This document shows, piece by piece, positions 31,093 to 62,291 of a DNA stretch of 64,000 nucleotides. The number at the start of each line of letters is the position of its first letter. Position 1 is the stretch's first letter. The notes under the pieces were generated by a model that saw nothing but the letters and a program-made list of their open reading frames with translations, was not told where the DNA came from and made no database searches. Source of the stretch: Candidatus Omnitrophota bacterium (GTDB lineage: Bacteria; Omnitrophota; Gorgyraeia; Zapsychrales; JANLHA01); the NCBI GenBank assembly GCA_020632555.1, contig JACKFI010000006.1, positions 11,467-75,466 of the forward strand, given 5' to 3'. Made by a program: the position numbers and the translations under genes.

Positions 31093-31144
31093 TTCTCGCT
31101 CCTTGTTGTTGATGGTTTTTTGTTTTAACCTTGCTGCCCTCTTT

Positions 31145-33424: not shown

Positions 33425-33452
33425 CTACTTCTGTTTGATCCTATTAGAATCA

Positions 33453-33911: not shown

Positions 33912-33924
33912 GCCAAGTCCGCCT

Positions 33925-37215: not shown

Positions 37216-37246
37216 ATTGGCCGTCTCTCCTTGAAAATCTTACCCA

Positions 37247-39696: not shown

Positions 39697-39775
39697 GATA
39701 ACCCCCTTTGACACACAGAAAACACCCTTGAACAGAAAGTTCACAACAATTTAAAACAAGGCTGTAAAAAAGGGA

Positions 39776-45620: not shown

Positions 45621-46397
45621 ATGAAGTTATCGTTCCTAAAATATTCAGTCCTCTTTTGGGCCCTATTATTCTGCACCACGCTTATTTATGCTCAACCGGC
45701 GTCCATCATCGATCAAATGATGCGCATCAAACCGTCTCTGGTTGAAATCACCGCTGTCAACGTGGCAGCAAAACTCGATACTCCAAAGCAACGGTCCCTT
45801 GCCAAAGATCCCAAAACTGGAAGAATTGTTGTTCTCAATAAGGGTACCACCCTTGCCACTTATCAACGCAGTGGTAGCGGTGTCATTTTAGATGAGTCGG
45901 GAATCATTATCACCAACGCCCACATCGTCGCGCAAGCGCAACAAATTCAAGTGCTCTTAGAAAACGGCGCTCAAATCAATGCCGCTGTCGTGCGCTACGC
46001 CCCAGATTTGGATTTAGCCCTTTTAAAAATCAACGCCCCGGTGGCGCTACCGACTGTAGCCTTAGCCGACTCCAGCCAAATTTTACTAAATCAAGAAATC
46101 TTTACCGTCGGCAGTTCTCCACTACTAAAAGAATCCATCAGCGGCGGAAAAATAACCGGCCTAGCTTCCAGCCGCAACGGCGCTTACAGCAATGCCTACG
46201 AAAGTGATTTCTTTCGCACCTCCATGACTATTTATAAAGGCGATAGCGGCGGACCATTATTTAATCGCGCCGGAGAATTGATTGGCCTGATGACTGCCAA
46301 GCTCAACAGCCAAGACAAAGCCAGCTTCGCCGTTTCTTCCAACAAAATTCGCCGTTATTTAATGAGTTACCTTAAAGAAGCGCACACCGCCCAATGA
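45621..46397 (+). CDS. exported trypsin-like (S1/HtrA-like, no PDZ) serine protease
   Basis: Signal peptide. Catalytic contexts are TNAHIV (His), DLALLK (Asp) and GDSGGPLF (Ser). Confidence 0.8.
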   Translation: MKLSFLKYSVLFWALLFCTTLIYAQPASIIDQMMRIKPSLVEITAVNVAAKLDTPKQRSLAKDPKTGRIVVLNKGTTLATYQRSGSGVILDESGIIITNAHIVAQAQQIQVLLENGAQINAAVVRYAPDLDLALLKINAPVALPTVALADSSQILLNQEIFTVGSSPLLKESISGGKITGLASSRNGAYSNAYESDFFRTSMTIYKGDSGGPLFNRAGELIGLMTAKLNSQDKASFAVSSNKIRRYLMSYLKEAHTAQ

Positions 46398-48904
46398 GTT
46401 CTTTACGAAAAACTATCTTGAGCTTTCTTCTTATCTGGGTTCTCGCCTCAGGACTGGGAATTTATTTACGCCTCTACACTTTACAAAATAATGTCAACCA
46501 TGACACAGAAGAAAAAGCGACTATTCTCGTCTTAAATAATCTGCGACGAGCCATCAATCAAGGCATCGAAAAAGCAAATCCTTCTCTTGCTGCCGCGCAA
46601 AAACAAAAACTGGCCAAACACCAATTTGACCTAACCCTGCGCCAGCAAAGCCTGAAAGTCAAAGAAAGCATTCGCCAAGCCGCTCAACAGCTCGACGAAA
46701 AGACGCCTGCATCCGACAAGAAATTCTATTTATTAGCTTCGGACTCCTATTATTATTACAACCTGACGGAAAATATTTTGAACACTGGCAAGATCAGCGA
46801 CAAAATTCAAGGCAGTAAATATTTTAATCCCTTAATGAACGCCCCTAACGGTTACTGGGAACCACTCAAACTTTATCCTTACGTCGGTTTTAGTATTTAC
46901 AAAACCATTGCTCTTTTTGTTCCCGACATCTCATTAATGGAAGCGGTCAGCTACACGCCGCTGATCTTTACCGTTCTTATCCTTTTCGTATTTCTAATCG
47001 GCTGTTTGATTCTCGGATGCAGTGGCGAAACATCATTTTTGGGTGCCGTTTATCTATTGTGTGCTCCTATTTTTCTTCGTCGCAGTATGTTTGGCTGGTA
47101 CGACGATGATCCGCCCAATATTTTCTTTTTATTCGCAATTCTAACCGTCTTCTTCTACGGGCTCAAACATCACCTTAACCGTCGAACCGTCGGAATGTGT
47201 GCCTTAACTTGCAGCATTCTCTTTACATTGTACGCTTTGTTTTGGCAAGGCTGGGTTTTTTTAGCCAGCATGATCGCGGCCAGTGCTTTTTTTATCGTGC
47301 TGTACAACCATTTTGTCCGCCGAGAAAAAACAACAACACCCCAATTGATCACCTATTCGCTGTTGACAATCACCGGAATATTTCTAGGTATCGTCCTTAT
47401 CTTTGGACCCAAAGAATTCTTCACCTTATTTCACGAAGGCTGGGTCGCTTTGCAAGATTTCCTGAATCCACATTTATCCTCCTGGCCGGATCTTTACATT
47501 GCCGTCGGTGAACTTTTAAGCCCAACCCCTGAAAAATGGTTAGAAATGATGGGCGGCTTATTCTTTGTCGGGACTGGAATTTTAGGGTTATTCACTGGCG
47601 GAATTCAGCTCTTTAAAAAACCCAACCATTCAACGAACTTTGCAATCATTGTATTGATCCTCTTTGCCTTGATCAGCACAAAACTATCACTGGGTGCCCA
47701 ACGTTTTGAAACACTTTGCCTGATCCCCTTTGCCTTTGCTTTTCCACTGGGACTGCAATTTCTCTGGGATATTATTCAAGAATTTATAAAAAAGCACGTC
47801 TCTCTGATCACAGAATCATTCTTCGGACAGCTGCTTATTCTGATCATTTTCGTCAGTATTCTAACGATCCTGCCATTTCAAGCCGCCCAGCGCATAACCC
47901 CTGATATCCTCAATAAAATCTTTAACACAACCTGGGATAACGCTCTGACTAAAATTAAAAATGAAACTCCCCCCAATAGCATTATCAATACGTGGTGGCC
48001 GCCCGGTCATTTCATCAAAGCTATCGCACAACGCCGCGTAACTTTTGACGGAGCAACAATCAATAAACCTCAAAGTTATTGGCTGGCCAATGCTTTCCTA
48101 ACCACTGACGAACGTATGTCCGCAGGTATTTTGCGCATGCTCAATAATAGTGGCAACGCCGCCACTGATTATCTGCTACAACAAAAACTACCGCTTGCCC
48201 AAGCAGTTGACTTACTCAAAAAAATAGTTCCATTAAACATCACTGACGCAAAGAAAATTCTTGCGTCAACGCTTAACCCAACACAAATCGATCATTTGTT
48301 GGTTCTGACTCATGCTAACCCTCCGCCGTCATATCTTTTGATTTACCAAGATATGGCCGAAAACAGCCTGCAATTTAGTTTTGTCGGCAATTGGGATTTT
48401 AAAAAAGTCGCCCAAATCAATAGTGACCCTATTTTAAAAAGTCGCGTCCCCGCGCGCAACTCCAAGGATTATGTTCCGTTTCTTTGGGAATTGGCGGGAG
48501 GGCCTCCTCGCTACAGCTCTGAACTTATGCCGGTCTTAGAAAAGGACGGCCATATTATTTTTGAAAATAATATCCAGGTTGATTTTAATAACCTCACCTG
48601 TTTAATTAATTCTCCAAAATTCGGAAAAGGAATTCCTGAAAGTATTTTTTATAAAGGACCGCAAGGATTCACAGAACAAAAACTTGCCAACGCAAATTTA
48701 CCTTATTGCGTTATGATCCTAAAAAATGGGCCCAACACCAAGTGCATGCTGGCTGAATCAGATTTGGCTAAATCTATGCTGTTGCGGCTTTTTTATTATC
48801 AAGGGCAAGGTTTAGATATTTATGAACCATTTGTTGACGAAAGGGATACAACTCAACGCACGAAGATTTTAATTTACAAACTCAATTGGGATCATTTTCA
48901 ATAA
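46394..48904 (+). CDS. STT3/PglB/AglB-family oligosaccharyltransferase homologue (GT-C) with non-canonical WWPPG motif
   Basis: 836 aa, with about 13 TM helices and a C-terminal soluble domain. The loop motifs are ASDSYYYY and GWYDDDPPN (compare the GxYDxD loop of PglB). WWPPGHFIKAIAQRRVTFDGATINKP aligns with WWDYGYxI....T..DGG/DNN of PglB/STT3. The start overlaps the protease stop by 4 nt. Confidence 0.6.
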   Translation: MSSLRKTILSFLLIWVLASGLGIYLRLYTLQNNVNHDTEEKATILVLNNLRRAINQGIEKANPSLAAAQKQKLAKHQFDLTLRQQSLKVKESIRQAAQQLDEKTPASDKKFYLLASDSYYYYNLTENILNTGKISDKIQGSKYFNPLMNAPNGYWEPLKLYPYVGFSIYKTIALFVPDISLMEAVSYTPLIFTVLILFVFLIGCLILGCSGETSFLGAVYLLCAPIFLRRSMFGWYDDDPPNIFFLFAILTVFFYGLKHHLNRRTVGMCALTCSILFTLYALFWQGWVFLASMIAASAFFIVLYNHFVRREKTTTPQLITYSLLTITGIFLGIVLIFGPKEFFTLFHEGWVALQDFLNPHLSSWPDLYIAVGELLSPTPEKWLEMMGGLFFVGTGILGLFTGGIQLFKKPNHSTNFAIIVLILFALISTKLSLGAQRFETLCLIPFAFAFPLGLQFLWDIIQEFIKKHVSLITESFFGQLLILIIFVSILTILPFQAAQRITPDILNKIFNTTWDNALTKIKNETPPNSIINTWWPPGHFIKAIAQRRVTFDGATINKPQSYWLANAFLTTDERMSAGILRMLNNSGNAATDYLLQQKLPLAQAVDLLKKIVPLNITDAKKILASTLNPTQIDHLLVLTHANPPPSYLLIYQDMAENSLQFSFVGNWDFKKVAQINSDPILKSRVPARNSKDYVPFLWELAGGPPRYSSELMPVLEKDGHIIFENNIQVDFNNLTCLINSPKFGKGIPESIFYKGPQGFTEQKLANANLPYCVMILKNGPNTKCMLAESDLAKSMLLRLFYYQGQGLDIYEPFVDERDTTQRTKILIYKLNWDHFQ

Positions 48905-48908
48905 ACAA

Positions 48909-49892
48909 TTATGGGGCAGCCTGTGTTTGTGTTGTCACAACAGCTTGTCCGCGAGCCTTGCCCGTATTACCACGCATACGCCGCACGCGATCCTGCCGCT
49001 CTTTAAGCGTCAATGGCTTGTAATCTTCTAGATCATAACCATCATCCATAGGATTGACCTTGGTTTCTTGAGAAGAACTTGCCGTTTCACTGCCCGAAGG
49101 CAAACGCGCACGCAATTGAATACGAATTTTTCCAACAGACGAATCGGCGTTAATTGCCGGCTCAGGAGATTTCTTAACTTGAGCCCTTACAATTTCTGAT
49201 GAGCCAGCATGAACATTAGGAATAGGGATATCCGGCCTTTGTCCCACCGGTCCGGCACCAGAACGCATAATAGCTTCCAATCGGCCAGCCAAAGTCTCCT
49301 CTCCCATGCCTCGCAGCGTGGTGATCACATCCAAAGCATTGGCTTGTTCATTATTGCGCGCATAAGCCAGACCCAAACCATAATACATTTTGGGATTAGG
49401 AATTTTTTCAATAACTTCCTTAAAATATTTAATCGCTTCTGCCGGCTGACCTGTTCCAAAAAGACACACCCAAGCTAATGTCACCTTAGCCGCGCCAGCA
49501 TTGGGATCAAGGGCTAGAGCTTTTAAACAAGCAGCTTGCGCCCAATCAGATTTTTGATATTGAAAATACGCTCGACACATATCCGAATAATGTTGCGCAT
49601 TTTGCGGCTCCAAATCTGCCGCTTGCTGAAAAAGCCAAACAATATCATCGATATTACCATTCTGGTCCAAATAAACCTGTCCTAAGGCACTATACGCTGG
49701 CGCAAAATCCGGGTCAGCATCAATCGACTTTTCATAAAAATCAATCGCCTTTAGGATATCTCCCTGCTGCATTCTTTCCTGACCTTGCGCAAATAATTCA
49801 CTGGCCGCAGACTGTGCGCAAGCAAAACGAACAAAAAGAAACATTTGCATTATGACCAATACCATCCAAAATTTTGCGTTTGAACTCATCAT
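48909..49892 (-). CDS. exported TPR-repeat protein
   Basis: Signal peptide (FACAQSAA) and several TPR units (AIDFYEKSIDADPDFAPAY..., AIKYFKEVIEK...). I prefer the start at 49892, overlapping the upstream stop as TAATG. Confidence 0.7.
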   Translation of the reverse strand: MMSSNAKFWMVLVIMQMFLFVRFACAQSAASELFAQGQERMQQGDILKAIDFYEKSIDADPDFAPAYSALGQVYLDQNGNIDDIVWLFQQAADLEPQNAQHYSDMCRAYFQYQKSDWAQAACLKALALDPNAGAAKVTLAWVCLFGTGQPAEAIKYFKEVIEKIPNPKMYYGLGLAYARNNEQANALDVITTLRGMGEETLAGRLEAIMRSGAGPVGQRPDIPIPNVHAGSSEIVRAQVKKSPEPAINADSSVGKIRIQLRARLPSGSETASSSQETKVNPMDDGYDLEDYKPLTLKERQDRVRRMRGNTGKARGQAVVTTQTQAAP

Positions 49893-51310
49893 TACTTTTT
49901 CTTCATCATTCTTTGCCAAACATTTGAATCGGAAACGTCACTATTTTGATACTCCTGGCTATCCATCTCTCTACTTTCAATTTTTTTCTGAATAGTATTA
50001 TTCTTTGGTTTTATCCCCCAGAAATCATTCCACAAAGATTCAATATTCTTAACTTTGAGACGTTGACCACTCTTAACTTCATTAAGTGGCGTTGCCTTTT
50101 TATTTTTAGAACTCACTGTATTCGAAGAATCTGTCTCCAAAGCTTTTTTCCCACCCTGCCCTTTAGCAGAATCCCCACCAGAACCAGAAAAACCACCTGC
50201 CCCCGACTCACCACCACCCTGACCAGCAGATCCATTAGCATTATAATTATCATCACTTTCCTCGCCATTGCCGCCGCCACCATTTTCTCCAGATGCAGAA
50301 TCACCGGCACCACCTTGACCACTGCCGCCATTACTCCCAGCCCCAGAACCGCCGCTACCATTTCCGCCAGATGCAGAATCACCGGCACCACCTTGACCAC
50401 TGCCACCATTACTCCCAGCCCCAGAACCGCCGCCACCATTTCCGCCAGATGCAGAATCACCGGCACCACCTTGACCACTGCCGCTATTACCACCTTTATT
50501 TAAACCACCCTTGCTCTCTGATCCCTGACCATCCCCAGATGAGTCTCCCAAAGACGCCTGGCCACTTGCCGAACCACGAGAACCTTGCCCCGCCTGGCCA
50601 TTAAGACCTTGCTCGGTTTTCAAATTATTTTTATTACTACCTGTGGTCGAACCCAAAGCACCAGCTGCCGGCATTGCTCGACTTGAGCCAGCTACAGATG
50701 TTTTCCCAGAAACATCTGCGGCTAAAGTTACGGCACCCTCTGAAAGCTGAGCATCAATAATCAACTTCGATATCTTCATGCTAACAGTCACTTCATCCGC
50801 ACTGGATTTCTTACCAGTAATATTCATCTTAACAACTTTTAATAAATTATTGGTCGTATCAATCTTATGAATAAATTTAATAATATTTTCGAACTTTCCG
50901 TTGCACTCAACATTGGCATAATATTGCATATAACCTTTTTTGGAAACCGCATCAGCAGGATTCAACTTGCCCAAAGTAACTTCCGCTTCCGTTCCTAAAT
51001 TTTCAATCGTCTTTAAAAACGCAGCAATACTCTCTTCTTCAGTTTTACGTTCATCCGCCTGATAAACGCTATAGATTTCATTTTCTTTAAATATTTTTTC
51101 CTGATATGCCAAAAAACGAACATTACGATTAATGTCGTTTTTGGTTTGTTCAATATCTCTATCCAAACTCTTTAACTTTGAAGTCACCTTCTGCAAGAAC
51201 AAAAAATCAAATGCCGCCAAAAGAATAAAACCCAGCGCGACATAAAATATCTTTCTTTCCTGCTCTGAAAGTTTTGTATAAAAATCCTTTAACATCCTTA
51301 AAATCCTCAA
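49892..51310 (-). CDS. PilO/GspM-like bitopic membrane protein with long Gly/Ser/Asn-rich repetitive C-terminal region
   Basis: The N-terminal 190 aa has a short cytoplasmic segment, a TM helix, a coiled coil and a small alpha/beta domain, as in PilO/GspM. About 200 aa of GSGQGGAGDSASGGNG repeats follow. Confidence 0.5.
   Translation of the reverse strand: MRILRMLKDFYTKLSEQERKIFYVALGFILLAAFDFLFLQKVTSKLKSLDRDIEQTKNDINRNVRFLAYQEKIFKENEIYSVYQADERKTEEESIAAFLKTIENLGTEAEVTLGKLNPADAVSKKGYMQYYANVECNGKFENIIKFIHKIDTTNNLLKVVKMNITGKKSSADEVTVSMKISKLIIDAQLSEGAVTLAADVSGKTSVAGSSRAMPAAGALGSTTGSNKNNLKTEQGLNGQAGQGSRGSASGQASLGDSSGDGQGSESKGGLNKGGNSGSGQGGAGDSASGGNGGGGSGAGSNGGSGQGGAGDSASGGNGSGGSGAGSNGGSGQGGAGDSASGENGGGGNGEESDDNYNANGSAGQGGGESGAGGFSGSGGDSAKGQGGKKALETDSSNTVSSKNKKATPLNEVKSGQRLKVKNIESLWNDFWGIKPKNNTIQKKIESREMDSQEYQNSDVSDSNVWQRMMKKK
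50270..50490 (-). repeat. 78-bp coding tandem repeat, about 2.6-3 copies
   Basis: The unit agatgcagaatcaccggcaccaccttgaccactgcc... restarts at 50291, 50369 and 50447 (exact 78-nt spacing), nearly identical each time. It encodes 26-aa GGNG(S/G)GGSGAGSNGGSGQGGAGDSAS units. Confidence 0.9.
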
Positions 51311-51413: not shown

Positions 51414-53531
51414 CTACCCCCGTTGGAATAGCAGGCGCAACTGCTGAGGATTTTCTGCCGGCAAATGACACATTTGATTCTCACAAACATAAACCAAAAC
51501 TTGATGTTTTTGAACATCCTGACCTTTTGTCATCGAGAACAATTCATCCATTTCTTTTTGAAAATTCAATGTTTTAACTGTCACAACTCTTTGAGCGATC
51601 CATGATCTAAAAACCAGCGCCAACATCTCTCGTCCTTTAATTTGTTCAACATCTCCAACAACACCAATTTCTTTAACCGGTCCAAAATAAAACTGCAAAG
51701 ACATCATCATCTGCGTATACGCACTTGGCGCCGTTAACATCTGAGCATAAAAGTTTTTAAAAAGCTGTTCACTTTTAACTAAATAACCCTGTTCAAATGT
51801 CAAATGGTAAAGCCGCAAAAAATGATGTGCCGCCAATGAATTTCCGGACGGAACCGCGCCATCATAAACCTCTTTGGGTCTAAAGATCAATTGCTCCCCA
51901 TCTTTTGGTGTTAAAAAGAGTCCCCCTGAATTTTCATCCCAAAATAAATCCATCATTTCCTGATTCAATCGAACAGCTTGTTTAAAATACTGCGGATCAA
52001 AAGAATATTCAAAAAGGTCCAAAAGTCCGGTAATAAAAAACACGTAGTCATCCAATCCCGCAAGAATTCCTGCCTCACCATCACGGTACCGATGCAATAA
52101 TCTTCCATCATCTCGTTTTAAATGCACAAGAATAAACCGCGCCGCCTTCTCTGCGGCCTGCAAATATCGCGGTTGGTCTAAAATCCTACCCGCCATAGCC
52201 AAACTCGAAATCATCAAACCATTCCAATCAACAAGAACTTTATCATCCAAATGCGGCAAAGGACGTTTTGCCCGAGCAGCAAAAAGTTTTTCTTTACCAC
52301 CTTGAATAATTCTTTCCACTTCTTCTGCCGGCGCTTGAACATGCGCCGCTGTCTCTGCTAAGGAGTGCTTCACATACAAAATATTTTTCCCAATAAATTC
52401 ACCGTGCGGATCAAGTTGCGCATTCCCATTGGGTTCAATACCAAAATGATAACTCAGAATTTGCAGCTCTTCAGACGTCAACAAACTTTTTAACTCTGTA
52501 ACAGACCATACATAAAACGCGCCTTCCTTCTTTTGATGATCATCAGCCGACTCTAGACTATCTGCATCGACAGCAGAATAAAAACCTCCTTGCTGATCAC
52601 ACATTTCCCGCAAAACATAATCAAGGATATGCTTAGCGGTATCGGCATACAATTCTTTACCCGTAGCAATAAAAGCCTCGAGATAAATCTTGGCCAACAA
52701 CGCCTGATCATAGAGCATTTTCTCAAAATGTGGAACTTGCCATTGGGCATCCGTCGCATAACGATGAAATCCGCCACCCAGCTGATCACACATCCCACCA
52801 TGACTCATTGCGGCCAAAGTTTGCTCGACCATAATCAAAGCATGAGGCTGATTATTATTCGTCCAATAACGCAAAAGAAAACTTAAAGTATGCCCCATCG
52901 GGAACTTAGGTGAATGACCAAAACCGCCATTTTGAATATCAAAATTATTGGCTAATTGTTCATAGGCTTGCGCCAATATCTCAGGTTCCAGAACTTTTGC
53001 AGTAACCTCTTGTTCAGAAAATCGCTGCAAAAAATGGTCTACAATCATTTCTCCCGACTGACGAATTTTATCTTGTTCCTTAATCCATTTGTTATGAACA
53101 GACCACAAAATATCCTTAAACCCCGGAGAACCCCAACGTGGCTCGGGGGGAAAATAAGTTCCACCATAAAAAGGCTGCTGCTGTGGTGTCAAAAAAACTG
53201 ATAATGGCCATCCACCACTACCAGTCGTGGCCGTAACAAAACTCATATAAATGCTATCCAACTCCGGGCGCTCTTCCCGATCAACCTTAATCGCGACAAA
53301 GTGCTCATTGATAAGTTGAGCAACTTTCTCATCTTCAAAACTTTCATGCGCCATCACATGACACCAATGGCACGTGGAATACCCAATTGATAAAAAAACA
53401 GGCTTATTTTCATTTTGAGCTTTAGCAAATGCAGCTTCTCCCCAGGGATACCACTGAACAGGATTATATGCATGTTGAAGAAGATACGGGCTTTTTTCAC
53501 CAATAAGAAGATTTGTTTTTTGCCTTTGCAT
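51414..53531 (-). CDS. DUF255 thioredoxin-domain protein (YyaL/SSP411-like; thioredoxin fold + alpha/alpha-6 barrel)
   Basis: The motifs are [13 protein letters not shown]-type N-terminus, [10 protein letters not shown] and SGGWPL. I prefer the start at MQRQKTN (53531), which avoids overlap with the upstream ORF. Confidence 0.8.
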
Positions 53532-53538
53532 CCGCTGA

Positions 53539-53901
53539 TTATTTCTCTGCTGATTCTTGTTGGGGAGGAATAACAAGATCTGCTTCGGCACTGCCGCCCA
53601 AACTACAGCTAGCTTTAACATGAACAGCATCACCAGGCTTCAAATCCAGAAAAATAGAAATTTTCACTTCGGAAGCCGAACGTTGGAAAGGCAATCGATG
53701 GATCTCTGGTTTTTCATTATTAACAGTGACCGTGATCGTCCGAATATAATGTTCTCTTAACTCTGCCGTTGGATGATGCATACTGATCGCCAAATTCTGT
53801 TCAACAGGATCGTATTGCAACTGTAAATCATTGGGCGGCGTCGCAGGAACAATCGAAACCATCAAGAACAGCCACACCGTAATTAGAAAAATATTTCTCA
53901 T
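53539..53901 (-). CDS. small secreted protein, unknown function
   Basis: Signal peptide followed by about 95 aa of predicted beta-rich sequence. There is a 4-nt overlap with the upstream gene. Confidence 0.45.
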
Positions 53902-54509
53902 TTTTGATCTCCCAGTATATTTGCAACTTTCATGTCAAGTAATGCCTCATCCAAGAGCTTTTGACGATCGTCTAACGAATGAACTTTAACAGAAACATCT
54001 GCCTTGTTTTTTAATACAGAAAAGTTTAGAACTGACAACTTTTCTAAATACTGACGTGTATCCAAATAATTCGGTAAAAGTTTTTCTACTTCCGCCAAAT
54101 CTTTTTGGCAAATCAGGTATTGCTTATGCTCGAAAGCCTCGACAGCTTTTTGATAAAGACGATCCACCCCTTTCTCGAATTCATTGACCAAAAACTCTCT
54201 TTCGCGAACAATCCTAACTTTGCGTTCAATGACCGCTTTGGCCAAATCAGAACGATCTCTCTTTAACTTCAAACGAGTTTGCAAAATCTTTTCCCGAATC
54301 CGTTGCGTGTTAAAATCATGTTTAACCTTATAACTTTCCAACGTATCCTGATCTTGCAAATCGTCAAAATATTGAGCGCTAGCATCCATTTGCTGCCGGA
54401 CAACAGCAAAAGCAGGGCAAATAAAACCTAAGAACGTAATAAATGAAACGATCAAAACTTTAAGGCAATAATTAAACATAGACATTTCGCAACTTAAGTT
54501 CAATGACAA
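53898..54509 (-). CDS. signal-peptide / membrane-anchored coiled-coil protein, unknown function
   Basis: The hydrophobic N-terminus ends in PAFAVV. The remainder is charged and helical. Confidence 0.45.
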   Translation of the reverse strand: MSLNLSCEMSMFNYCLKVLIVSFITFLGFICPAFAVVRQQMDASAQYFDDLQDQDTLESYKVKHDFNTQRIREKILQTRLKLKRDRSDLAKAVIERKVRIVREREFLVNEFEKGVDRLYQKAVEAFEHKQYLICQKDLAEVEKLLPNYLDTRQYLEKLSVLNFSVLKNKADVSVKVHSLDDRQKLLDEALLDMKVANILGDQK

Positions 54510-54523
54510 ACATGCGTGCTATT

Positions 54524-55846
54524 TTAGCGTAAACAAGCATTATCCACACACTTTTTATTGATATGAAACAAATAACGATTCTTAGCAATTCCCGCATAAA
54601 ATAAGGGTCCTAAAACATTAGCACCAGGGAAATACGCGAGAAAAACTACAGGATATAACATCGGCAAGAGCAAAATCAGCCGACGAAAAGCAAAAAATCC
54701 TCCGTACAAATCCCCAGTTGGCTCAACCAAATACAATTGACTATGCACCTTCTCTTTGCTCAGCTGAGAATGCAAAAGCGACACATCCGGACAAGTCTGG
54801 TAATCAACAAAAGTTAATCGGCCAAACAAATCCATCACTTTAAGCATTTCAATACTAGCTGTACAAAACTGACAATGCCCATCATAAATAACTTGTATCT
54901 TCGCACTATGAGCAAAAATCCTTCGCCGCTGTTCAATCCAGGCCACAATCTTTTCTGGAGGAATAAAAAGCAATAACTGAGCTGGAAACAAAAAGAAAAA
55001 AATCGCTGGCACATCCAAAGTCAAAATCAAAGTGACATGAAAAAGAAAACCTAAACTAATTCCTGTCAAGCGCGTTGCCGGATTAAATAGAAGAAATGGC
55101 ATTAGCAACTCAATCATAACAATCACAACACCCAAAACATAACACAAAGCCGGATGCGCGCTGAAAAAATCGCGCAACAAGAAATACTTCGTTACCCCCT
55201 CGCTGGGCATAATCATCAAATAATAAATCGGATTTCCGCTGAGCCAATTGCCCTGCGCTGTGACTTTATACAACCCGGTATAAAAATAAATAAAAGCCAA
55301 TTGCATTTGCAAAAGCCGCTGAATAAAAAATGGCCGTTGCCGATAAAAAGCGCTGGGGTCTCTTCTTAAAACACAATCCAGCGAAAAATAATCCCCCAAA
55401 TACGGCACAAAACAAATCAAAACCAAAGTTACCAAAAGAATGTCCCACGCTAATGTTCCAATTGCAAAAGCATTCAAAGCATAAAAATAATAACAACCCA
55501 AGGTCATGGCAATCGCACTAAATTGTGTTTTATATCCAATTAAAAAAGAAAACCAAACCAAACAAAATATTGCGGCCATAACGATCACCAAGGCATCAGG
55601 ACTTTGTTGGATAAAGTCTAAAATTCCTGCAGTAAAAAAATTTGTGTTGAGAACCTTAAATGCTCCCGAGAGATAATTTTCTTTCAAAGGAACAAAAGTT
55701 GGCAGCACATGAAATCCAACCGCCAGAGCAACAGCAATGCGAAAGAATGCCAAGGAAATGGATGGCCGCTCTTCTAAAAATAATTTCTTCCAAAGATTCT
55801 TCATATTATTCATCACATTGGTAAAACGGCGCCTGGATTTGCTCAA
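54524..55846 (-). CDS. HTTM-domain membrane protein (vitamin-K-dependent carboxylase / SdpB family) fused to a DCC/DUF393 thiol-disulfide oxidoreductase domain
   Basis: The HTTM-like start is SISLAFFRIAVALAVGFHV, with about 9 TM helices. The C-terminal IQVIYDGHCQFCTASIEMLKVMD is the DUF393/DCC CxxC signature. The true start may be an internal Met (55813 or 55804). Confidence 0.65.
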   Translation of the reverse strand: MSKSRRRFTNVMNNMKNLWKKLFLEERPSISLAFFRIAVALAVGFHVLPTFVPLKENYLSGAFKVLNTNFFTAGILDFIQQSPDALVIVMAAIFCLVWFSFLIGYKTQFSAIAMTLGCYYFYALNAFAIGTLAWDILLVTLVLICFVPYLGDYFSLDCVLRRDPSAFYRQRPFFIQRLLQMQLAFIYFYTGLYKVTAQGNWLSGNPIYYLMIMPSEGVTKYFLLRDFFSAHPALCYVLGVVIVMIELLMPFLLFNPATRLTGISLGFLFHVTLILTLDVPAIFFFLFPAQLLLFIPPEKIVAWIEQRRRIFAHSAKIQVIYDGHCQFCTASIEMLKVMDLFGRLTFVDYQTCPDVSLLHSQLSKEKVHSQLYLVEPTGDLYGGFFAFRRLILLLPMLYPVVFLAYFPGANVLGPLFYAGIAKNRYLFHINKKCVDNACLR

Positions 55847-56264
55847 AACGTGAGCTTGTTAATGAAGGATATTCCACCGCCGCGACTATAAACTTTTCGT
55901 ATTCCGGGAATTGATTTTTTAGAACGCGACAAAAATCTTGTCGCACGCTGGGCATGAGAACAGTACTCAATACATTGCGATGCACCATATCAAACCCAAT
56001 AAAACGAGTCCGGATAATTTCATGCGGATCAATCAGGTCAGTGTTTCCATTACGAACACCATAAACTTTGGCATAAACAGCACGGTCATCAACCTGATAA
56101 AACATGATCCAGCCAGCGGGGGGATAAAGAAACTTCAACTTCGGCAAAGCCCGGTGAAAATACGGCTGCAAATAAAAGTGGCGCAGCGATTCATAATGAA
56201 ATACACTTGCCCACACAATAACAAATACACTGATAATAATATTGCGATAACTTTTTAAGACCAT
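55806..56264 (-). CDS. single-TM protein, possible SdpA-family partner of the HTTM protein
   Basis: 152 aa with an N-terminal TM helix, immediately upstream of and overlapping the HTTM gene. The SdpA assignment rests only on size and synteny. Confidence 0.35.
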   Translation of the reverse strand: MVLKSYRNIIISVFVIVWASVFHYESLRHFYLQPYFHRALPKLKFLYPPAGWIMFYQVDDRAVYAKVYGVRNGNTDLIDPHEIIRTRFIGFDMVHRNVLSTVLMPSVRQDFCRVLKNQFPEYEKFIVAAVEYPSLTSSRFEQIQAPFYQCDE

Positions 56265-56284: not shown

Positions 56285-57757
56285 CTAAAGAAGCTCTCTC
56301 TCACCAAAAACATCAGCTGTAAATATTTCAATATGAGTTGCTGGGTCTTGCCAGCAATTTGCCGGTAAATTAGCTTTCTGTGAACACAATTCCGAAAGAA
56401 ACTTCTCCTTGCTCCACTGGGTCTCAGTCGCGACTTGCGGCAAAAAGACGCCATGCGCTCGTCCTTTACTGATGATCACGCCATGCACACCCATTTGAAT
56501 TTCGCCAATATCTTTAATCCGCCATGGACGAGAAAGAACAGAAATTTCCAAATCAATGCTCTTAAGCTCCTCTGCCCTTACAGCCGAAAACCGCGGATCT
56601 TGCGTCGCCGCGGCAATAGCCATGTCACGCACTGTTTTCTGCAAAGGTTCATCGCTAACAATATGTCCAATACACCCCCGCAGCTGCCCATTCTTATGGA
56701 TTGTGACAAAAGCCCCTTGGGGATACGACAGCCGAGCATCATCAATCTGAATGTTTTTAACTTTATGCTCAGTCACATAATTTTCAATTGTCTGACGTGC
56801 CAAAGTCAATAACTGCTTTTTTTGTTCTAAATTTAAAACTGACACAGCATTTCCTTTTGTTTCTTGCCCTGAAAGATGCGACTTATAAAAAATAACAGAA
56901 CTATAGCCAACAACTCGGCTATTATCGCCAGTGATATCGCCGGAGTGAGCATACTTCAAAACTTTGGCCTGCAATCCCCGTGATTGCGCCAACAAAAGAG
57001 CTGTGGTCACTGGAACAAAACCGCACATTTCCATTTTACCCATACGGCATTGTTGATAAAGAACTGCGGCGTCGAGTTTTTCAATACTGGCCAAAGTTAT
57101 TGCATCCATTGCGCGGGCTGCAGCACCCTGATGATAATGCGACATATCGCTGCTCACGACCACCAGAACATCAGAACGTTTGCCAATCAACTGGTCCAAA
57201 GCCACTGCTAATTTCTGACAGCTGGCATAACTCATCTGCCCTAAAATCACCGGAACAATTTTAAAATCCATAAAAGTTTTCTGTAAAAAAGGAATTTCAA
57301 CTTCCAGAGAATGTTCTTTTTGATAGGCTTGGGCATCAAAAGCAAACTGTTGATCAACAGCGCTGAGTTTCTGTGCAAATTCTTCATCAACAGCCACGGT
57401 CCCTAAAGGAGTTTGAAATCCGCCCTGACTCCACACTGAAGCCCCGGCAAAACCATAAAAATGACTGGGTGCCAAAATAACAATTGTTTTAAATTGCTTT
57501 TGACTAGCTGCTTTAAAGCTATACCCCGCAACAGGCCCAGAATAAACATAACCGGCATGCGGCGCAATCACAATCTGAACATCATCTTCAACCGCAACAG
57601 TATCCGCGTCTTTAAGATAAGCCTCTAGATTCTGTGATAGTTTTTTAGGATCAGCGTCATAAAACTGGCCGCTGACATTGGGAAGTTTAATATTTTGAGG
57701 AAAAGCAGGTCGAGCCATAACAACCAATAAAATTAGAATAAAGGTTAGACGTCGCAC
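56285..57757 (-). CDS. Memo-like (AmmeMemoRadiSam protein B) :: AMMECR1 (protein A) fusion with N-terminal signal peptide
   Basis: MRRLTFILILLVVMARPAFPQ precedes the Memo start SGQFYDADPKKL and IAPHAGYVYSG. The C-terminal third has the AMMECR1 block GAFVTIHKNGQLRGCIG. Confidence 0.75.
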   Translation of the reverse strand: MRRLTFILILLVVMARPAFPQNIKLPNVSGQFYDADPKKLSQNLEAYLKDADTVAVEDDVQIVIAPHAGYVYSGPVAGYSFKAASQKQFKTIVILAPSHFYGFAGASVWSQGGFQTPLGTVAVDEEFAQKLSAVDQQFAFDAQAYQKEHSLEVEIPFLQKTFMDFKIVPVILGQMSYASCQKLAVALDQLIGKRSDVLVVVSSDMSHYHQGAAARAMDAITLASIEKLDAAVLYQQCRMGKMEMCGFVPVTTALLLAQSRGLQAKVLKYAHSGDITGDNSRVVGYSSVIFYKSHLSGQETKGNAVSVLNLEQKKQLLTLARQTIENYVTEHKVKNIQIDDARLSYPQGAFVTIHKNGQLRGCIGHIVSDEPLQKTVRDMAIAAATQDPRFSAVRAEELKSIDLEISVLSRPWRIKDIGEIQMGVHGVIISKGRAHGVFLPQVATETQWSKEKFLSELCSQKANLPANCWQDPATHIEIFTADVFGERELL

Positions 57758-57761
57758 AAAA

Positions 57762-58259
57762 CTACTTTTCTGATTTTAGAAAATATTTATCCAAACTCCA
57801 AAACGAAGTATATTCTACCACCCCACGTAACAAAACGATTGTTAACAACAATAAGCATATGTCAAGAATAAGCGTATGATGAATATCCGATGAAAAAAGA
57901 CCACCAAAACACCCACAATATTCCAGAGGAAGTTTACGAATCAAGGCTTGCGAAATAATCCCAATAAAAGTCATAATCATCAAAACAAATGCCCGCAATA
58001 CCCACTTTAACCATAGTCCCAATACCAAAAACAAACCCAAGAAAAGCTCAATCCATGGAAAAACTCGCGCAACAATATTTTCTAACATCGCCGGAAGAAT
58101 TTCATATCCCTGCACCACATAAAGAAAATTCTGATACGGTTCCATGATCTTGGTAATACCGATCACAACAAAAAGGCTACCAATCAAAACTCTGAGAATA
58201 AAGAATTTAGGGCCTAAATTCTTAATCATCTTGATCTTTGCATTTGTCTCTGAATTCAT
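57762..58259 (-). CDS. MauE/DoxX-family membrane protein
   Basis: 4 TM helices and the CGCFGG motif characteristic of MauE-like proteins. Confidence 0.6.
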   Translation of the reverse strand: MNSETNAKIKMIKNLGPKFFILRVLIGSLFVVIGITKIMEPYQNFLYVVQGYEILPAMLENIVARVFPWIELFLGLFLVLGLWLKWVLRAFVLMIMTFIGIISQALIRKLPLEYCGCFGGLFSSDIHHTLILDICLLLLTIVLLRGVVEYTSFWSLDKYFLKSEK

Positions 58260-58939
58260 GGTTTGACCTCGCTTGGGATAGACACTTCAACGGGCGTCTT
58301 TATCCCTAATAACTCATCTAACTTCATTTGTAATGATTTTGTGCCGACCACCATTTCATGATTGATAAAATAAGAGGGTGTCGAAGAAACCATGCGCATT
58401 TTTCCTTCTTCCTGATCAGTCGCAATCGCTTGCTTAACACTATCATCTTTTAAGCACGCATTTAACTGATCAAGATTCACACCTGCTTGCTTACCAATGG
58501 CCTCAAAAGACGGGACCGGATCAATCATCGCCGCCCATTCATTTTGCCGCGCAATCAAAAGATCCATAAACGGCCAAAACTTGTCCTGACGAGCAGCGCA
58601 TTCACCCCAACGCGCACTGGATTCTCCATGTTTATGCATAGCTAACGGAAAATACCGCAATTCAATATAAAGCTTATCAGGATTGTTTTTTAAATATTCA
58701 TGCAACAATTGATACCCTTTGGCGCACGCGGGACATTGGAAATCGATAAATTCAATAATTTTGATTTTAGCTTGCGGATTACCTTGCGCGCGTTGTGGAA
58801 GTTTTATTGCAGCAGGATTTTGAGCCACAACGACCTGTTGTTGCTTTTGCATAAATTTTAAGCCGGAAAATATTGCAATTCCACCAACAATCAAAACAAT
58901 TGTTAAACCCTTTTTGGAAACCTTTGCCATAACACACAC
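58256..58939 (-). CDS. membrane-anchored DsbA-family thiol:disulfide oxidoreductase
   Basis: N-terminal TM anchor, thioredoxin fold with FIDFQCPACA active site, and C-terminal SSTPSYFIN (cis-Pro region). Confidence 0.8.
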   Translation of the reverse strand: MCVMAKVSKKGLTIVLIVGGIAIFSGLKFMQKQQQVVVAQNPAAIKLPQRAQGNPQAKIKIIEFIDFQCPACAKGYQLLHEYLKNNPDKLYIELRYFPLAMHKHGESSARWGECAARQDKFWPFMDLLIARQNEWAAMIDPVPSFEAIGKQAGVNLDQLNACLKDDSVKQAIATDQEEGKMRMVSSTPSYFINHEMVVGTKSLQMKLDELLGIKTPVEVSIPSEVKP

Positions 58940-59010: not shown

Positions 59011-59045
59011 AAAAAAAACCCCGTAAGAATTTTACGGGGTTTTTA
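59011..59045 (-). terminator. rho-independent (bidirectional-looking) terminator after pckA
   Basis: The stem CCCCGTAA-gaatt-TTACGGGG is flanked by an A-run (59011-59018) and a T-run (59040-59044). On the minus strand it follows the pckA stop by about 20 nt. Confidence 0.85.
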
Positions 59046-60806: not shown

Positions 60807-62289
60807 GGGAATGATACCATTGATCCTTACCCCCTGATCCCAGCGGAGGCGATGAAAATTTTATGTATTACGGATGAAGCATTTAAAAATATTAAAGAGG
60901 CTTACCAGGCCTTTTGCCAGGGCCTTAGAGGTCGATTACCCAAAAGATCGTTGAACCCTAGCCCCATTAGGGAGAGTTTATTAGTACAAAAACAACCCGT
61001 CCTTAAGAAAAAACATTTTTCGGATTATGAACCCAGCAAAGCGATTTACCTCAACGAATGTGATTATCGCCGCTGGTGCCGCGTTAGCGAATGGTTTAAC
61101 CAATATGGATCTGATTCTGAATATTAAAAATCTATGAATTAAATAAAAATGGACACATAATAGCTCCTAAAAATCCTTGGCGGGATGAAAGGAGTGAAAA
61201 AACTTATGTGTCCGTACAAATATTATCATGTTATGAGACAAAGCAAAGATAAAAAAATCTTACGTTACCAGATGGTTCTAAAGGCTCTAGCGCTGGGCGT
61301 CAAGCCCACAGCCAGACTTTTTAATACCAGCGCGCCTGTGGTCCGTAAATGGTCCAAGCGTTTTAAGACTGACGGTTATCTTGGATTAAACGACCGCTCC
61401 CACAAACCCCACTATTCTCCCGGTGCCACACCCGAGCCTATAAAAAAGTTTATCATCGATCTAAAGGGCAAATATAAGCGTTTGGGCGCAGAACACATTC
61501 GAAACTTAGAAGGTTTAACTTATGCCCCTAAAACCATGCGCAAAATCTGGAAAGAGGCGGGTATCCCGTCGAGAAAGAGACCCAAGAAACATGTCACAAA
61601 GAACAACCTGCGCGCCGTAAAAATGCTCTTTAAATTATTCGAGCAATCCATGGAGGACACCAAAGACCTCATGGATATCCCCGAATACTATCTCCAAGCT
61701 AAAATGCTTAATCTGCCAAAAGTGCAATATACTTTTCGGGAAGTCTCCTGCGGAATTCTTTTTACCGGCTTTGCCAATAATCTTTCGCTAACACATTCAC
61801 AATTATTTGCCGTCTATATCAACCACTTCCTCAAGAAATTTAGCGCTCTGCCGAAATCGGCTATGCGACAAACTGATAATGGCAGCGAATTCATCGGCGC
61901 TTGGAATGCTAAAAAATCTTCTGCCTACACCAAGACCATCGAATCTGTGCCCGGCCAATGGCACAACACAATTTTCCCCGGTGCACATCGCATGCAATCT
62001 GACGTCGAGACGATTCACAATCTCATGGAGATGGAATTCTTTGAGATTGAACAATTCAAGAATAGGGCGGACTTCTTTAACAAAGCCACGTCCTATCAAT
62101 TATTCTTCAACCTGCATCGCACAAACTCTTACAAAGAACACAAAACACCTTGGCAATTAGCCCAAGAAAAGAAACCAGATTTGGACAAACGCTTACTGAT
62201 GGTTCCTCCAGTCGATCTCGACAAACTACTCAACTGGAAATTATCACTTACTCATTCGAAGGGGGGTAACGATCACTTGACCGTTCCCT
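60807..62289 (+). mobile_element. IS481-like insertion sequence (about 1.48 kb) with imperfect ~28-bp terminal inverted repeats
   Basis: The left end is GGGAATGATACCATTGATCCTTACCCCC. The reverse complement of the right end is GGGAACGGTCAAGTGATCGTTACCCCCC; the termini GGGAA and TGATCnTTACCCCC are shared. It contains a DDE/rve transposase ORF and is flanked by a 16-bp direct repeat. Confidence 0.7.
60852..61127 (+). CDS. hypothetical small ORF inside the IS, upstream of the transposase
   Basis: 91-aa ORF with no recognisable motif. Coding status is uncertain. Confidence 0.3.
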   Translation: MKILCITDEAFKNIKEAYQAFCQGLRGRLPKRSLNPSPIRESLLVQKQPVLKKKHFSDYEPSKAIYLNECDYRRWCRVSEWFNQYGSDSEY

Positions 62290-62291
62290 AA
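61185..62291 (+). CDS. IS481-family DDE (rve) transposase
   Basis: N-terminal HTH (ARLFNTSAPVVRKWSKRF...GLNDRSHKPHYSP) and an integrase core with QTDNGSEFIG. The stop codon straddles the right IS end. Confidence 0.8.
   Translation: MKGVKKLMCPYKYYHVMRQSKDKKILRYQMVLKALALGVKPTARLFNTSAPVVRKWSKRFKTDGYLGLNDRSHKPHYSPGATPEPIKKFIIDLKGKYKRLGAEHIRNLEGLTYAPKTMRKIWKEAGIPSRKRPKKHVTKNNLRAVKMLFKLFEQSMEDTKDLMDIPEYYLQAKMLNLPKVQYTFREVSCGILFTGFANNLSLTHSQLFAVYINHFLKKFSALPKSAMRQTDNGSEFIGAWNAKKSSAYTKTIESVPGQWHNTIFPGAHRMQSDVETIHNLMEMEFFEIEQFKNRADFFNKATSYQLFFNLHRTNSYKEHKTPWQLAQEKKPDLDKRLLMVPPVDLDKLLNWKLSLTHSKGGNDHLTVP

What the first reader, a model, noticed from the sequence alone, without database searches (positions are those of the whole stretch)
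53898..56264. Possible SdpA/SdpB-like peptide-maturation pair with an HTTM::DCC fusion, followed by a secreted 203-aa protein
A 152-aa single-TM protein overlaps the start of an HTTM-domain membrane protein. In Bacillus subtilis the sdpABC operon encodes a small SdpA, the HTTM-family SdpB, and a signal-peptide precursor, SdpC, that is processed into a disulfide-containing toxin. SdpA/SdpB-like pairs are known to occur widely without SdpC.

Here the HTTM protein additionally carries a C-terminal DCC/DUF393 CxxC domain (GHCQFC). The next gene encodes a signal-peptide protein. The synteny and sizes echo sdpABC, but I could not establish sequence similarity for the 152- and 203-aa proteins by eye.
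Basis: inference. Interest (0 to 1): 0.55.

Follow-up and report, generated by a model that had tools for sequence, protein, structure and literature searches.

The report
Split bacterial vitamin-K-carboxylase-like enzyme pair
A small, uncatalogued membrane protein and a membrane enzyme related to the human vitamin-K-dependent carboxylase form a gene pair kept together in candidate-phylum bacteria, usually beside a secreted Memo–AMMECR1 protein, and the locus is not a Bacillus-type SdpABC toxin locus.

Summary
The three ORFs are real and lie on the minus strand. They are a 152-aa single-TM protein (X152), an HTTM::DCC fusion, and a 203-aa protein with a signal-peptide-like N-terminus (Y203).

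X152 belongs to a compact family with no Pfam or NCBIfam model. It matches neither the SdpA nor the DUF5819 models. Its gene sits directly upstream of an HTTM(::DCC) gene in 77 of 78 informative genome loci, with a median gap of 12 nt.

The HTTM domain superposes on human GGCX and keeps the catalytic lysine (K194, equivalent to GGCX K218). Bacillota plasmids carry the same layout with DUF5819 in X152's place. A 2026 preprint models DUF5819 plus HTTM::DCC as a GGCX-like complex. X152 is therefore best read as a lineage-specific small subunit of a split GGCX-like enzyme.

Y203 is not a conserved partner, being found in about 10 of 80 loci. It has one mature Cys and no C-terminal hydrophobic domain, so the SdpC analogy fails.

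The conserved neighbours are a secreted Memo–AMMECR1 fusion (68 of 80 loci, 13 of them rearranged) and a MauE/DsbA-like pair (50 and 49 loci). The chemistry and the substrate remain inferred.

The parts
55806..56264 (-). X152, the small subunit candidate. It has an N-terminal TM helix (about residues 2-36) and an alpha/beta domain of about 115 aa that is probably periplasmic. Invariant residues include E25, the P48-P49-x-G51-W52-x-M54-F55 motif, H81, D92, R96, C112 (55929-55931) and C150 (55815-55817).
   Evidence: ORF. There are 206 homologues with no Pfam domain. Alignment A1 gives the invariant columns. The AF2 model has pLDDT 82.5. No PDB fold match reaches E<=0.001. Only 47 representative clusters are found among 1.84 billion proteins.
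54524..55804 (-). HTTM::DCC fusion protein. It is 426 aa from ATG 55804; the longest ORF starts at TTG 55846 and gives 440 aa.
   Evidence: Pfam hits. P0121 is a 100 %-identical 426-aa NCBI protein. The AF2 model has pLDDT 86.3. Start codon context.
54956..55759 (-). HTTM domain with eight predicted TM helices. The conserved Lys K194 (codon 55265-55267) and W201 (55244-55246) lie at or just beyond the periplasmic end of TM5.
   Evidence: Pfam PF05090. Foldseek against human GGCX gives E 1.2e-07, probability 1.00 and about 300 aligned columns. Profile A5 hits GGCX at E 1e-13, and the printed alignment places this Lys on the second K of the GGCX 'VKK'. Helix limits come; the sidedness from K/R counts in the loops comes. 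Codons checked.
54569..54892 (-). DCC1-like (DUF393) thiol-disulfide oxidoreductase domain with an invariant C325-x-F327-C328 motif (54863-54874). It is predicted to be cytoplasmic. It is followed by hydrophobic helices and a C-terminal C433-x4-C438 pair: C433 is nearly invariant, and a C438-equivalent Cys is present in most aligned homologues.
   Evidence: Pfam PF04134 at E 7.8e-18. Invariant columns. Topology inference. The C-terminal Cys pair is also present in Bacillota homologues.
56285..57757 (-). Secreted Memo-AMMECR1 fusion (AmmeMemoRadiSam system proteins B and A in one chain) with an N-terminal signal peptide. It is the most conserved neighbour of the pair.
   Evidence: Pfam and NCBIfam hits lie above the cutoffs. 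It is adjacent in 68 of 80 loci, and in 13 of these it is on the opposite strand. Signal-peptide-like N-termini are seen in nearly all copies.
57762..58259 (-). MauE/DoxX-family membrane protein with a CGC motif. It belongs to the same operon in the Omnitrophota subset.
   Evidence: Pfam MauE at E 2.7e-21. Present in 50 of 80 loci in fixed order.
58256..58939 (-). Membrane-anchored DsbA-like thioredoxin with a CPAC motif. It is the first gene of the putative operon.
   Evidence: Pfam Thioredoxin_4 and DSBA. Present in 49 of 80 loci. It lies downstream of the pckA terminator-like hairpin at 59014-59044.
53898..54509 (-). Y203, a charged protein with a signal-peptide-like N-terminus. It is co-directional but is not a conserved partner of the pair.
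   Evidence: No family hit. tblastn matches are found in 10 of 80 loci, and the gene downstream of HTTM::DCC is variable. It has one mature Cys, 37 % charged residues and no second hydrophobic segment.

Best explanation
X152 and the HTTM::DCC protein are the two chains of one membrane enzyme. [quoted passage not shown]

Shown here:
- The two genes are almost always adjacent and tightly spaced.
- The HTTM domain has the GGCX transmembrane fold.
- It keeps the lysine that aligns with GGCX K218, and a tryptophan seven residues later.
- The DCC domain keeps its CxxC motif.

Inferred:
- The HTTM chain starts and ends in the cytoplasm and has 8 TM helices. K194 then faces the periplasm and the DCC domain is cytoplasmic.
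- X152 inserts N-in/C-out. It supplies in trans the extra TM helix and the extracytoplasmic lid that GGCX and MloH carry in cis, and that DUF5819 supplies in Bacillota.
- Its conserved PPAGWIMF segment would sit at the quinone pocket. Its two invariant cysteines would form a periplasmic disulfide.

Most likely chemistry (inference, modest confidence): the enzyme uses a membrane quinol to generate a strong base or epoxide at the periplasmic face. That species would carboxylate or otherwise modify an envelope substrate. The cytoplasmic DCC CxxC would recycle or regulate the quinone.

In Omnitrophota and Elusimicrobia the pair works in a pathway with a secreted Memo-AMMECR1 protein, which could be substrate, product handler or co-catalyst. 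In most Omnitrophota a DsbA-like/MauE thiol-oxidation pair is also part of it. Y203 is a bystander.
For: Linkage:
- X152 is followed by HTTM in 77 of 80 loci, with a median gap of 12 nt. One real exception exists.
- The fusion with DCC is present in 70 loci.

Relation to GGCX:
- Foldseek matches the HTTM model to 15 human GGCX structures at E 1e-7 to 3e-5 with probability 1.00.
- Profile A5 hits GGCX at E 1e-13. K194 aligns to the second K of the 'VKK' segment, W201 to the DADW tryptophan and the FH motif to the GGCX FH.
- PDB entry titles name a K217A and K218A double mutant.
- K194 and W201 are invariant in the locus alignment.

Same layout elsewhere:
- Bacillus and Virgibacillus plasmids have 'DUF5819 family protein' immediately upstream of HTTM::DCC, or upstream of separate HTTM and DCC genes.
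- They share the Lys, the Trp and the C-terminal Cys pair.
- Sulfitobacter has an unannotated 155-aa protein in the same position.

Literature: preprint 10.64898/2026.08.19.745780 models DUF5819 plus HTTM::DCC as a confident complex resembling whole GGCX. In that model the DUF5819 TM helix lies on a GGCX helix and menaquinol sits near Lys189 and Trp195.

Topology and context:
- K/R counts over 47 sequences fit N-in, 8 TM and a cytoplasmic DCC domain.
- Memo-AMMECR1 is adjacent in 68 of 80 loci, 13 of them in rearranged orientation, and nearly all copies have signal peptides.
Against: No sequence homology between X152 and DUF5819 or SdpA could be shown:
- hhalign of A1 against a DUF5819 alignment gives probability 1.4 %.
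- No Pfam or NCBIfam hit appears at E up to 10.
- An exhaustive HMM search finds only the X152 family itself.

The X152 model has no significant PDB match; no GGCX chain is among the 50 matches listed.

No complex prediction could be run, so physical interaction is inferred from gene linkage and analogy only. No X152-HTTM fusion protein was seen.

The substrate, the quinone and the oxidant are unknown. GGCX chemistry needs O2, and the lifestyle of these organisms was not examined.

The DUF5819 complex in the literature is itself only a prediction in a preprint.
Confidence: 0.62

Rival explanations
1. The locus is an SdpABC-type toxin maturation locus: X152 and HTTM::DCC process the secreted 203-aa protein into a disulfide-containing peptide.
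For: - The gene order and sizes echo sdpABC. SdpC is also 203 aa and has a signal peptide (PMC6818787).
- Y203 has a signal-peptide-like N-terminus.
- A close relative of the HTTM protein gives a weak SdpB-model hit of 27.6 bits.
Against: - No SdpA, SdpB or SdpC model hit for the window proteins.
- Y203 homologues occur in only about 10 of 80 loci. The downstream gene is usually something else, such as FtsW/RodA, Memo-AMMECR1 on the other strand, or others.
- Mature Y203 has one Cys, is 37 % charged and lacks the C-terminal hydrophobic domain that becomes SDP.
- No Pfam- or NCBIfam-recognisable SdpR/SdpI-type immunity gene lies among the flanking genes scanned.
Confidence: 0.05
2. The pair is a thiol-quinone electron relay rather than a carboxylase-like modifier. 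HTTM::DCC with X152 would move electrons between cytoplasmic thiols (DCC CxxC), a membrane quinone and periplasmic Dsb-type proteins, working as a VKOR/DsbB/DsbD-like function for the envelope.
For: - An invariant CxxC, a nearly invariant C433 with a widely present C438-equivalent, and two invariant Cys in X152.
- Operon partners are a DsbA-like and a MauE/DoxX protein in 49-50 of 80 loci.
- A DUF255 thioredoxin lies further downstream.
Against: - The HTTM domain keeps the GGCX catalytic Lys and pocket Trp, which are not needed for simple electron transfer.
- DsbA and MauE are absent from the rearranged Elusimicrobia-type loci, which still keep X152, HTTM::DCC and Memo-AMMECR1.
- Three loci keep X152 and HTTM without the DCC domain.
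Confidence: 0.15
3. X152 is functionally independent of the HTTM protein. On this view the adjacency is inherited synteny within one bacterial lineage.
For: - All loci come from related candidate phyla, mostly Omnitrophota with some Elusimicrobia.
- No fusion and no detectable homology to known HTTM partners was found.
Against: - The other neighbours turn over while this pair stays together down to 46-50 % identity.
- Spacing is typical of translational coupling, with a median of 12 nt.
- Unrelated phyla have a small single-TM protein in exactly the same position.
Confidence: 0.06

Closest known systems
DUF5819 (PF19136) plus HTTM::DCC1-like pairs of Bacillota. The Melghirimyces thermohalophilus pair is modelled in bioRxiv 10.64898/2026.08.19.745780. 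The same pairs were found here on Bacillus and Virgibacillus plasmids.
   Same: - Same gene order and tight spacing.
- The small protein has an N-terminal TM helix followed by an extracytoplasmic domain.
- The partner is a fusion of about 430-456 aa with HTTM, DCC CxxC and a C-terminal Cys pair.
- The Lys and Trp of the quinone pocket are conserved.
   Different: - X152 shows no detectable sequence homology to DUF5819 and is shorter (152 aa against 180-235 aa).
- The HTTM::DCC proteins are only about 23 % identical.
- The Omnitrophota module adds a secreted Memo-AMMECR1 and DsbA/MauE, which are absent from the Bacillota loci inspected.
[quoted passage not shown]
   Same: The fold of the HTTM transmembrane domain matches. 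The catalytic Lys (K218 equivalent) and neighbouring motifs are conserved.
   Different: - GGCX is one chain with a large lumenal clamp domain and no DCC domain.
- Here the extracytoplasmic part is a separate small protein with no fold match to GGCX, and a cytoplasmic CxxC domain is appended.
- Carboxylase activity is untested.
Bacillus subtilis SdpA/SdpB (and the paralogues YitP/YitO) with the precursor SdpC.
   Same: A small protein gene lies immediately upstream of an HTTM-family membrane protein gene, and a gene for a signal-peptide protein follows.
   Different: - No SdpA, SdpB or SdpC model hits.
- By my own knowledge SdpB lacks a DCC domain; this was not tested here.
- The downstream protein is not conserved and lacks the hydrophobic toxin domain.
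MloH of malonomycin biosynthesis (Law et al. 2018, as cited in the preprint).
   Same: It is a bacterial HTTM enzyme of the GGCX type whose extracytoplasmic region corresponds structurally to DUF5819.
   Different: In MloH the two parts are fused in one chain and act in a PKS-NRPS pathway. No such biosynthetic genes are near this locus.
AmmeMemoRadiSam system (TIGR04335, TIGR04336 and TIGR04337).
   Same: The neighbour protein matches both the A (AMMECR1) and B (Memo) models well above their cutoffs.
   Different: - Here A and B are fused and carry a signal peptide.
- No radical-SAM partner is in the window or among conserved neighbours.
- The conserved partner is the X152 plus HTTM::DCC pair.

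Membership tests
SdpA family (Pfam SdpA model; NCBIfam TIGR04034) | A significant match to the family HMM. | tested here: not met
   X152 gives no hit at E<=0.1. None of the 34 family members hits at E<=10 in Pfam or NCBIfam.
SdpA family | Encoded immediately upstream of an HTTM/SdpB-type gene. | tested here: met
   There is a 1-nt spacer in the window. The arrangement holds in 77 of 78 informative loci.
SdpB family (NCBIfam TIGR04033, cutoff 178.4 bits) | A score at or above the curated cutoff. | tested here: not met
   The window protein gives no hit. A 76 %-identical relative scores 27.6 bits, and the Bacillota HTTM::DCC scores 63.6 bits.
SdpC-type toxin precursor | A signal peptide plus a C-terminal hydrophobic toxin domain, conserved next to the SdpAB-like pair. 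| tested here: not met
   Y203 has a signal-peptide-like N-terminus only. Maximum hydropathy after residue 45 is 0.65 and there is one mature Cys. It is found in about 10 of 80 loci. SdpC features are taken from PMC6818787.
DUF5819 (PF19136) | A significant match to the family HMM or profile. | tested here: not met
   No Pfam hit for any A1 member at E<=10. hhalign of A1 against the DUF5819 alignment A4 gives probability 1.4 %. The positive control, the Bt plasmid protein, hits PF19136 at 7.7e-24.
DUF5819 | Architecture and context: an N-terminal TM helix plus an extracytoplasmic domain, encoded directly upstream of HTTM::DCC. | tested here: met
   Searches give the architecture. Searches give the context. 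The comparison loci come, and the description.
HTTM domain (PF05090), GGCX-type | A Pfam match above the gathering score and the GGCX transmembrane fold. | tested here: met
   46.9 bits against a cutoff of 27.7. Foldseek to GGCX gives E 1.2e-07 and probability 1.00.
HTTM domain, GGCX-type | The catalytic lysine equivalent to human K218. | tested here: met
   K194 is invariant and aligns to the second K of the GGCX 'VKK'. That this K is K218 rests on my knowledge of the human numbering and on the K217A/K218A entry titles.
Vitamin-K-dependent carboxylase (functional class) | Quinol- and O2-dependent carboxylation of a substrate. | not testable with these tools
   This needs biochemistry. No substrate was identified.
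DCC1-like / DUF393 (PF04134) | A Pfam match and a conserved CxxC motif. | tested here: met
   66.2 bits against a cutoff of 27.8. C325 and C328 are invariant.
AmmeMemoRadiSam system (neighbour gene) | The A (AMMECR1) and B (Memo) components. | tested here: met
   TIGR04336 scores 286.4 bits against a cutoff of 26. TIGR04335 scores 179.8 bits against a cutoff of 99.
AmmeMemoRadiSam system (neighbour gene) | An associated radical-SAM enzyme (TIGR04337) in the same locus. | tested here: not met
   None of the 34 uncharacterised ORFs of at least 90 aa between 2 and 40180 has a CxxxCxxC motif, and none of the ORFs from 40251 to 63947 gave a radical-SAM Pfam hit. No such cluster was seen among the conserved neighbours in the 80 loci that were annotated. 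The rest of the genome is not visible.

The most novel reading that the evidence does not exclude
The operon from DsbA-like through MauE, secreted Memo-AMMECR1 and X152 to HTTM::DCC may encode a self-contained bacterial 'vitamin K cycle'.

In this reading, thiol oxidation by DsbA/MauE and/or the DCC domain would charge a membrane quinol. The split GGCX-like enzyme (X152 plus HTTM) would spend that quinol at the periplasmic face on a covalent modification. The secreted Memo-AMMECR1 protein would be its dedicated substrate or co-catalyst.

That would be a previously unrecognised envelope modification pathway. It would also give the first concrete biochemical context for the Memo and AMMECR1 domains outside the cytoplasm and without their radical-SAM partner.
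Probability: 0.15. Interest if true: 0.75.

Novelty: new variant of a known kind. Interest (0 to 1): 0.5.

Why it matters
HTTM enzymes are the only known relatives of the human clotting-factor carboxylase, and their bacterial roles are almost entirely unknown.

This locus shows that the 'small TM protein plus HTTM::DCC' design extends to Omnitrophota and Elusimicrobia. There the small subunit is so diverged that no family model recognises it.

In these lineages the pair is genomically tied to a secreted Memo-AMMECR1 fusion. Memo and AMMECR1 are widely conserved domains of unresolved function, and both have human homologues linked to disease.

If the link is functional, it offers a tractable route to two things. 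One is the substrate of bacterial GGCX-like enzymes. The other is the chemistry of Memo and AMMECR1. The system has only five genes, and all of its products lie in the cell envelope.

Tried and rejected
- SdpA, SdpB and SdpC membership was rejected by HMM scans.
- X152 as a divergent DUF5819 could not be shown. I built a five-sequence DUF5819 alignment from plasmid loci. hhalign gave probability 1.4 %, with only motif-level resemblance (Y..Y[LM].P[LY]F and W.[ML]F). This is neither proven nor excluded.
- A homologue search with a Bt DUF5819 protein, meant to deepen that alignment, returned only one cluster.
- The fold search of the X152 model against the PDB gave nothing meaningful; the top hits were ribosomal protein L3 at TM 0.24.
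- Sequence profiles of X152 and of DUF5819 against the PDB gave nothing.
- Family-only profiles of the HTTM::DCC protein missed GGCX. Adding Bacillota and Sulfitobacter sequences recovered it.
- An exhaustive profile search for distant X152 relatives or X152-HTTM fusions found none.
- The other recurrent neighbours proved to be housekeeping genes without a consistent link: FtsW/RodA, a T2SS ATPase, glycoside hydrolases and NAD kinase.
- A motif search for a radical-SAM partner in the window found none.
- The promoter scan was uninformative, with counts equal to the shuffled controls.
- Burroughs et al. 2019 (JBC), which surveys Memo gene contexts, could not be read. Prior mention of this Memo-HTTM context cannot be excluded.
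Full report
**Observation**

The stated interval holds three minus-strand ORFs:
- X152 at 55806-56264 (152 aa);
- an HTTM::DCC protein at 54524-55846 (440 aa as the longest ORF);
- Y203 at 53898-54509 (203 aa).

Pfam finds HTTM (E 3.6e-12) and DCC1-like (E 7.8e-18) in the middle protein. It finds nothing in X152 or Y203, and NCBIfam agrees.

The reported overlap is an artefact of taking the longest ORF. A 100 %-identical NCBI protein from a Candidatus Omnitrophica MAG is 426 aa long (P0121). Conservation in the alignment begins just after M15. ATG 55804 lies one base after the X152 stop codon.

**Is X152 a real gene, and what family is it?**

A word-indexed search found 206 homologues of 145-200 aa. 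None carries a Pfam domain, and the named ones are from Omnitrophota and Elusimicrobia MAGs.

The alignment shows strong, patterned conservation. It has an N-terminal hydrophobic helix ending in an invariant Y-E. A PPAGW-x-MF segment follows, then an invariant H81, D92 and R96. Exactly two cysteines, C112 and C150, are present and both are invariant.

An exhaustive HMM search of 1.84 billion representatives returned only 47 clusters. All are the same family or fragments of it. There were no fusions and no distant families.

The AF2 model (pLDDT 82.5) is a long helix plus a small alpha/beta domain. It has no significant PDB neighbour.

None of 34 members hits SdpA, DUF5819 or any other model at E<=10.

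**Linkage**

I fetched 80 genome loci that encode X152 relatives.
- tblastn finds an HTTM domain immediately downstream on the same strand in 77 of them.
- Two of the other three loci end at the contig edge. L022 is a true exception.
- The median spacing is 12 nt.
- The DCC domain is fused in 70 loci, with an invariant C-x-F-C motif.

The next most conserved neighbour is a Memo-AMMECR1 fusion, present in 68 loci. In 13 of these it lies on the opposite strand, either divergent upstream or convergent downstream. Adjacency has therefore survived rearrangement.

A MauE/DoxX gene (50 loci) and a DsbA-like gene (49 loci) precede these genes, in fixed order, in the Omnitrophota subset.

Y203 relatives appear in only about 10 loci. 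The gene after HTTM::DCC is otherwise FtsW/RodA, the reversed Memo-AMMECR1 gene, or unrelated genes.

**The HTTM::DCC protein**

The AF2 model has pLDDT 86.3. It matches 15 human GGCX cryo-EM structures at E 1e-7 to 3e-5, with probability 1.00 over about 300 columns.

Family-only profiles missed GGCX by sequence. A broader profile that includes the Bacillota and Sulfitobacter proteins hits it at E 1e-13. That alignment places:
- the invariant K194 (codon 55265-55267) on the second lysine of the GGCX '...GVKKLDADW...' segment, which is K218, the catalytic base, by my knowledge of the human numbering;
- W201 on the following tryptophan.

K/R counts in the loops of 47 homologues fit a topology with 8 TM helices and both ends in the cytoplasm. 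K194 then sits at the periplasmic end of TM5 and the DCC domain is cytoplasmic (inference).

**Comparison with known systems**

A tblastn search of plasmids found Bacillus and Virgibacillus HTTM::DCC proteins. They are 23 % identical over 99 % of the query, at E 3e-11. In every inspected locus an annotated 'DUF5819 family protein' lies immediately upstream. In Sulfitobacter an unannotated 155-aa protein holds that position. The Bacillota proteins share the Lys, the Trp and the C-terminal Cys pair.

A 2026 preprint (10.64898/2026.08.19.745780) models DUF5819 plus HTTM::DCC from Melghirimyces as a confident complex.
- The complex resembles whole GGCX.
- The DUF5819 TM helix lies on a GGCX helix, and its domain lies in the place of the GGCX clamp.
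- Menaquinol sits near Lys189 and Trp195.
- The authors note that MloH carries the two parts fused.

X152 has the same architecture and context as DUF5819. However, profile-profile comparison gives no support for homology (probability 1.4 %).

Against the SdpB model, the Bacillota proteins score 63.6 bits. A close relative of the window protein scores 27.6 bits, and the window protein gives no hit. The curated cutoff is 178.4 bits.

**Y203 versus SdpC**

SdpC is a 203-aa protein with a signal peptide. Its C-terminal hydrophobic domain (C141-S182) becomes the toxin (PMC6818787).

Y203 shares only the length and a signal-peptide-like N-terminus. Its mature part is 37 % charged, has one Cys and has no second hydrophobic segment. 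It is not conserved with the pair.

**Context**

The Memo-AMMECR1 protein matches the AmmeMemoRadiSam B and A models far above their cutoffs. Yet it has an N-terminal signal peptide, and so do nearly all its counterparts in the 80 loci. No radical-SAM partner is present in the window or among the conserved neighbours.

**Conclusion**

The SdpABC reading is only partly right. There is a genuine small-protein/HTTM pair, but it is not a member of the Sdp families and it has no SdpC-like precursor.

The best-supported reading is a split GGCX-like membrane enzyme. Its small subunit, X152, belongs to a new and unrecognised family that occupies the DUF5819 position. In Omnitrophota and Elusimicrobia the enzyme is embedded in an envelope redox module with a secreted Memo-AMMECR1 protein.

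The physical interaction, the topology, the chemistry and the substrate are all inferred.

Noticed in passing
window 56285-57757 (-): A Memo-AMMECR1 fusion (AmmeMemoRadiSam B plus A) carries an N-terminal signal peptide, and so do nearly all its counterparts next to X152/HTTM::DCC in other genomes. No radical-SAM partner is nearby. A secreted version of this normally rSAM-associated pair is unusual.
   Followed up: partly
window 57762-58939 (-): A DsbA-like thioredoxin (CPAC motif, membrane anchored) overlaps by 4 nt a MauE/DoxX membrane protein with a CGC motif. This looks like a DsbA/DsbB-type oxidation pair. It heads the operon in 49-50 of 80 loci.
   Followed up: partly
window 51414-53901 (-): A secreted 120-aa protein has a weak desulfoferrodoxin-like match (E 0.0028, below the cutoff). 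A 739-aa DUF255/thioredoxin plus epimerase-like protein follows it. The two travel together in about 15 related loci.
   Followed up: no
window 49892-51310 (-): A PilO/GspM-like protein has a long Gly/Ser/Asn-rich repetitive region (GSGQGGAGDSASGGNG repeats) that makes up much of its 472 aa.
   Followed up: no
window 30790-39744 (-): A heavy-metal efflux cluster. It holds an OEP outer-membrane factor, a CusB-like adaptor with an HMBD domain, an AcrB/CusA-type pump, a DUF2231 membrane protein, a P-type ATPase with YHS plus HMBD domains, and a small secreted YHS protein.
   Followed up: no
window 15301-17352 (-): A single 683-aa protein combines porphobilinogen deaminase, a tetrapyrrole methylase (SUMT-like) and uroporphyrinogen-III synthase domains. 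This is a triple fusion of consecutive tetrapyrrole steps.
   Followed up: no
window 46394-48904 (+): An 836-aa STT3-family oligosaccharyltransferase homologue lies next to a trypsin-like peptidase on the opposite strand from most genes.
   Followed up: no
window 61185-62291 (+): An ORF has HTH and IS481 leucine-zipper domains and is probably a transposase. It is one of the few plus-strand genes near the operon.
   Followed up: no
L081:2370-6326 and L085:1-3577 (Bacillus thuringiensis plasmids): In Bt plasmids the DUF5819 plus HTTM(::DCC) pair is preceded by an S8 serine peptidase and a small hypothetical protein of about 111 aa. This could be a precursor/protease set closer to the Sdp idea than the Omnitrophota locus is.
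   Followed up: no
L082:4363-5983 (Sulfitobacter indolifex plasmid): Another unannotated small protein (155 aa, no Pfam hit) abuts an HTTM gene, which a separate DCC gene follows. The small partner of HTTM enzymes seems to diverge beyond recognition repeatedly.
   Followed up: partly
L022:6683-8894: This is the only locus with enough downstream sequence in which X152 is not followed by HTTM::DCC. A 488-aa gene on the opposite strand follows instead.
   Followed up: partly
L046, L064, L072: In three loci the HTTM protein next to X152 lacks the DCC domain (294-339 aa). The fusion is therefore not obligatory.
   Followed up: no
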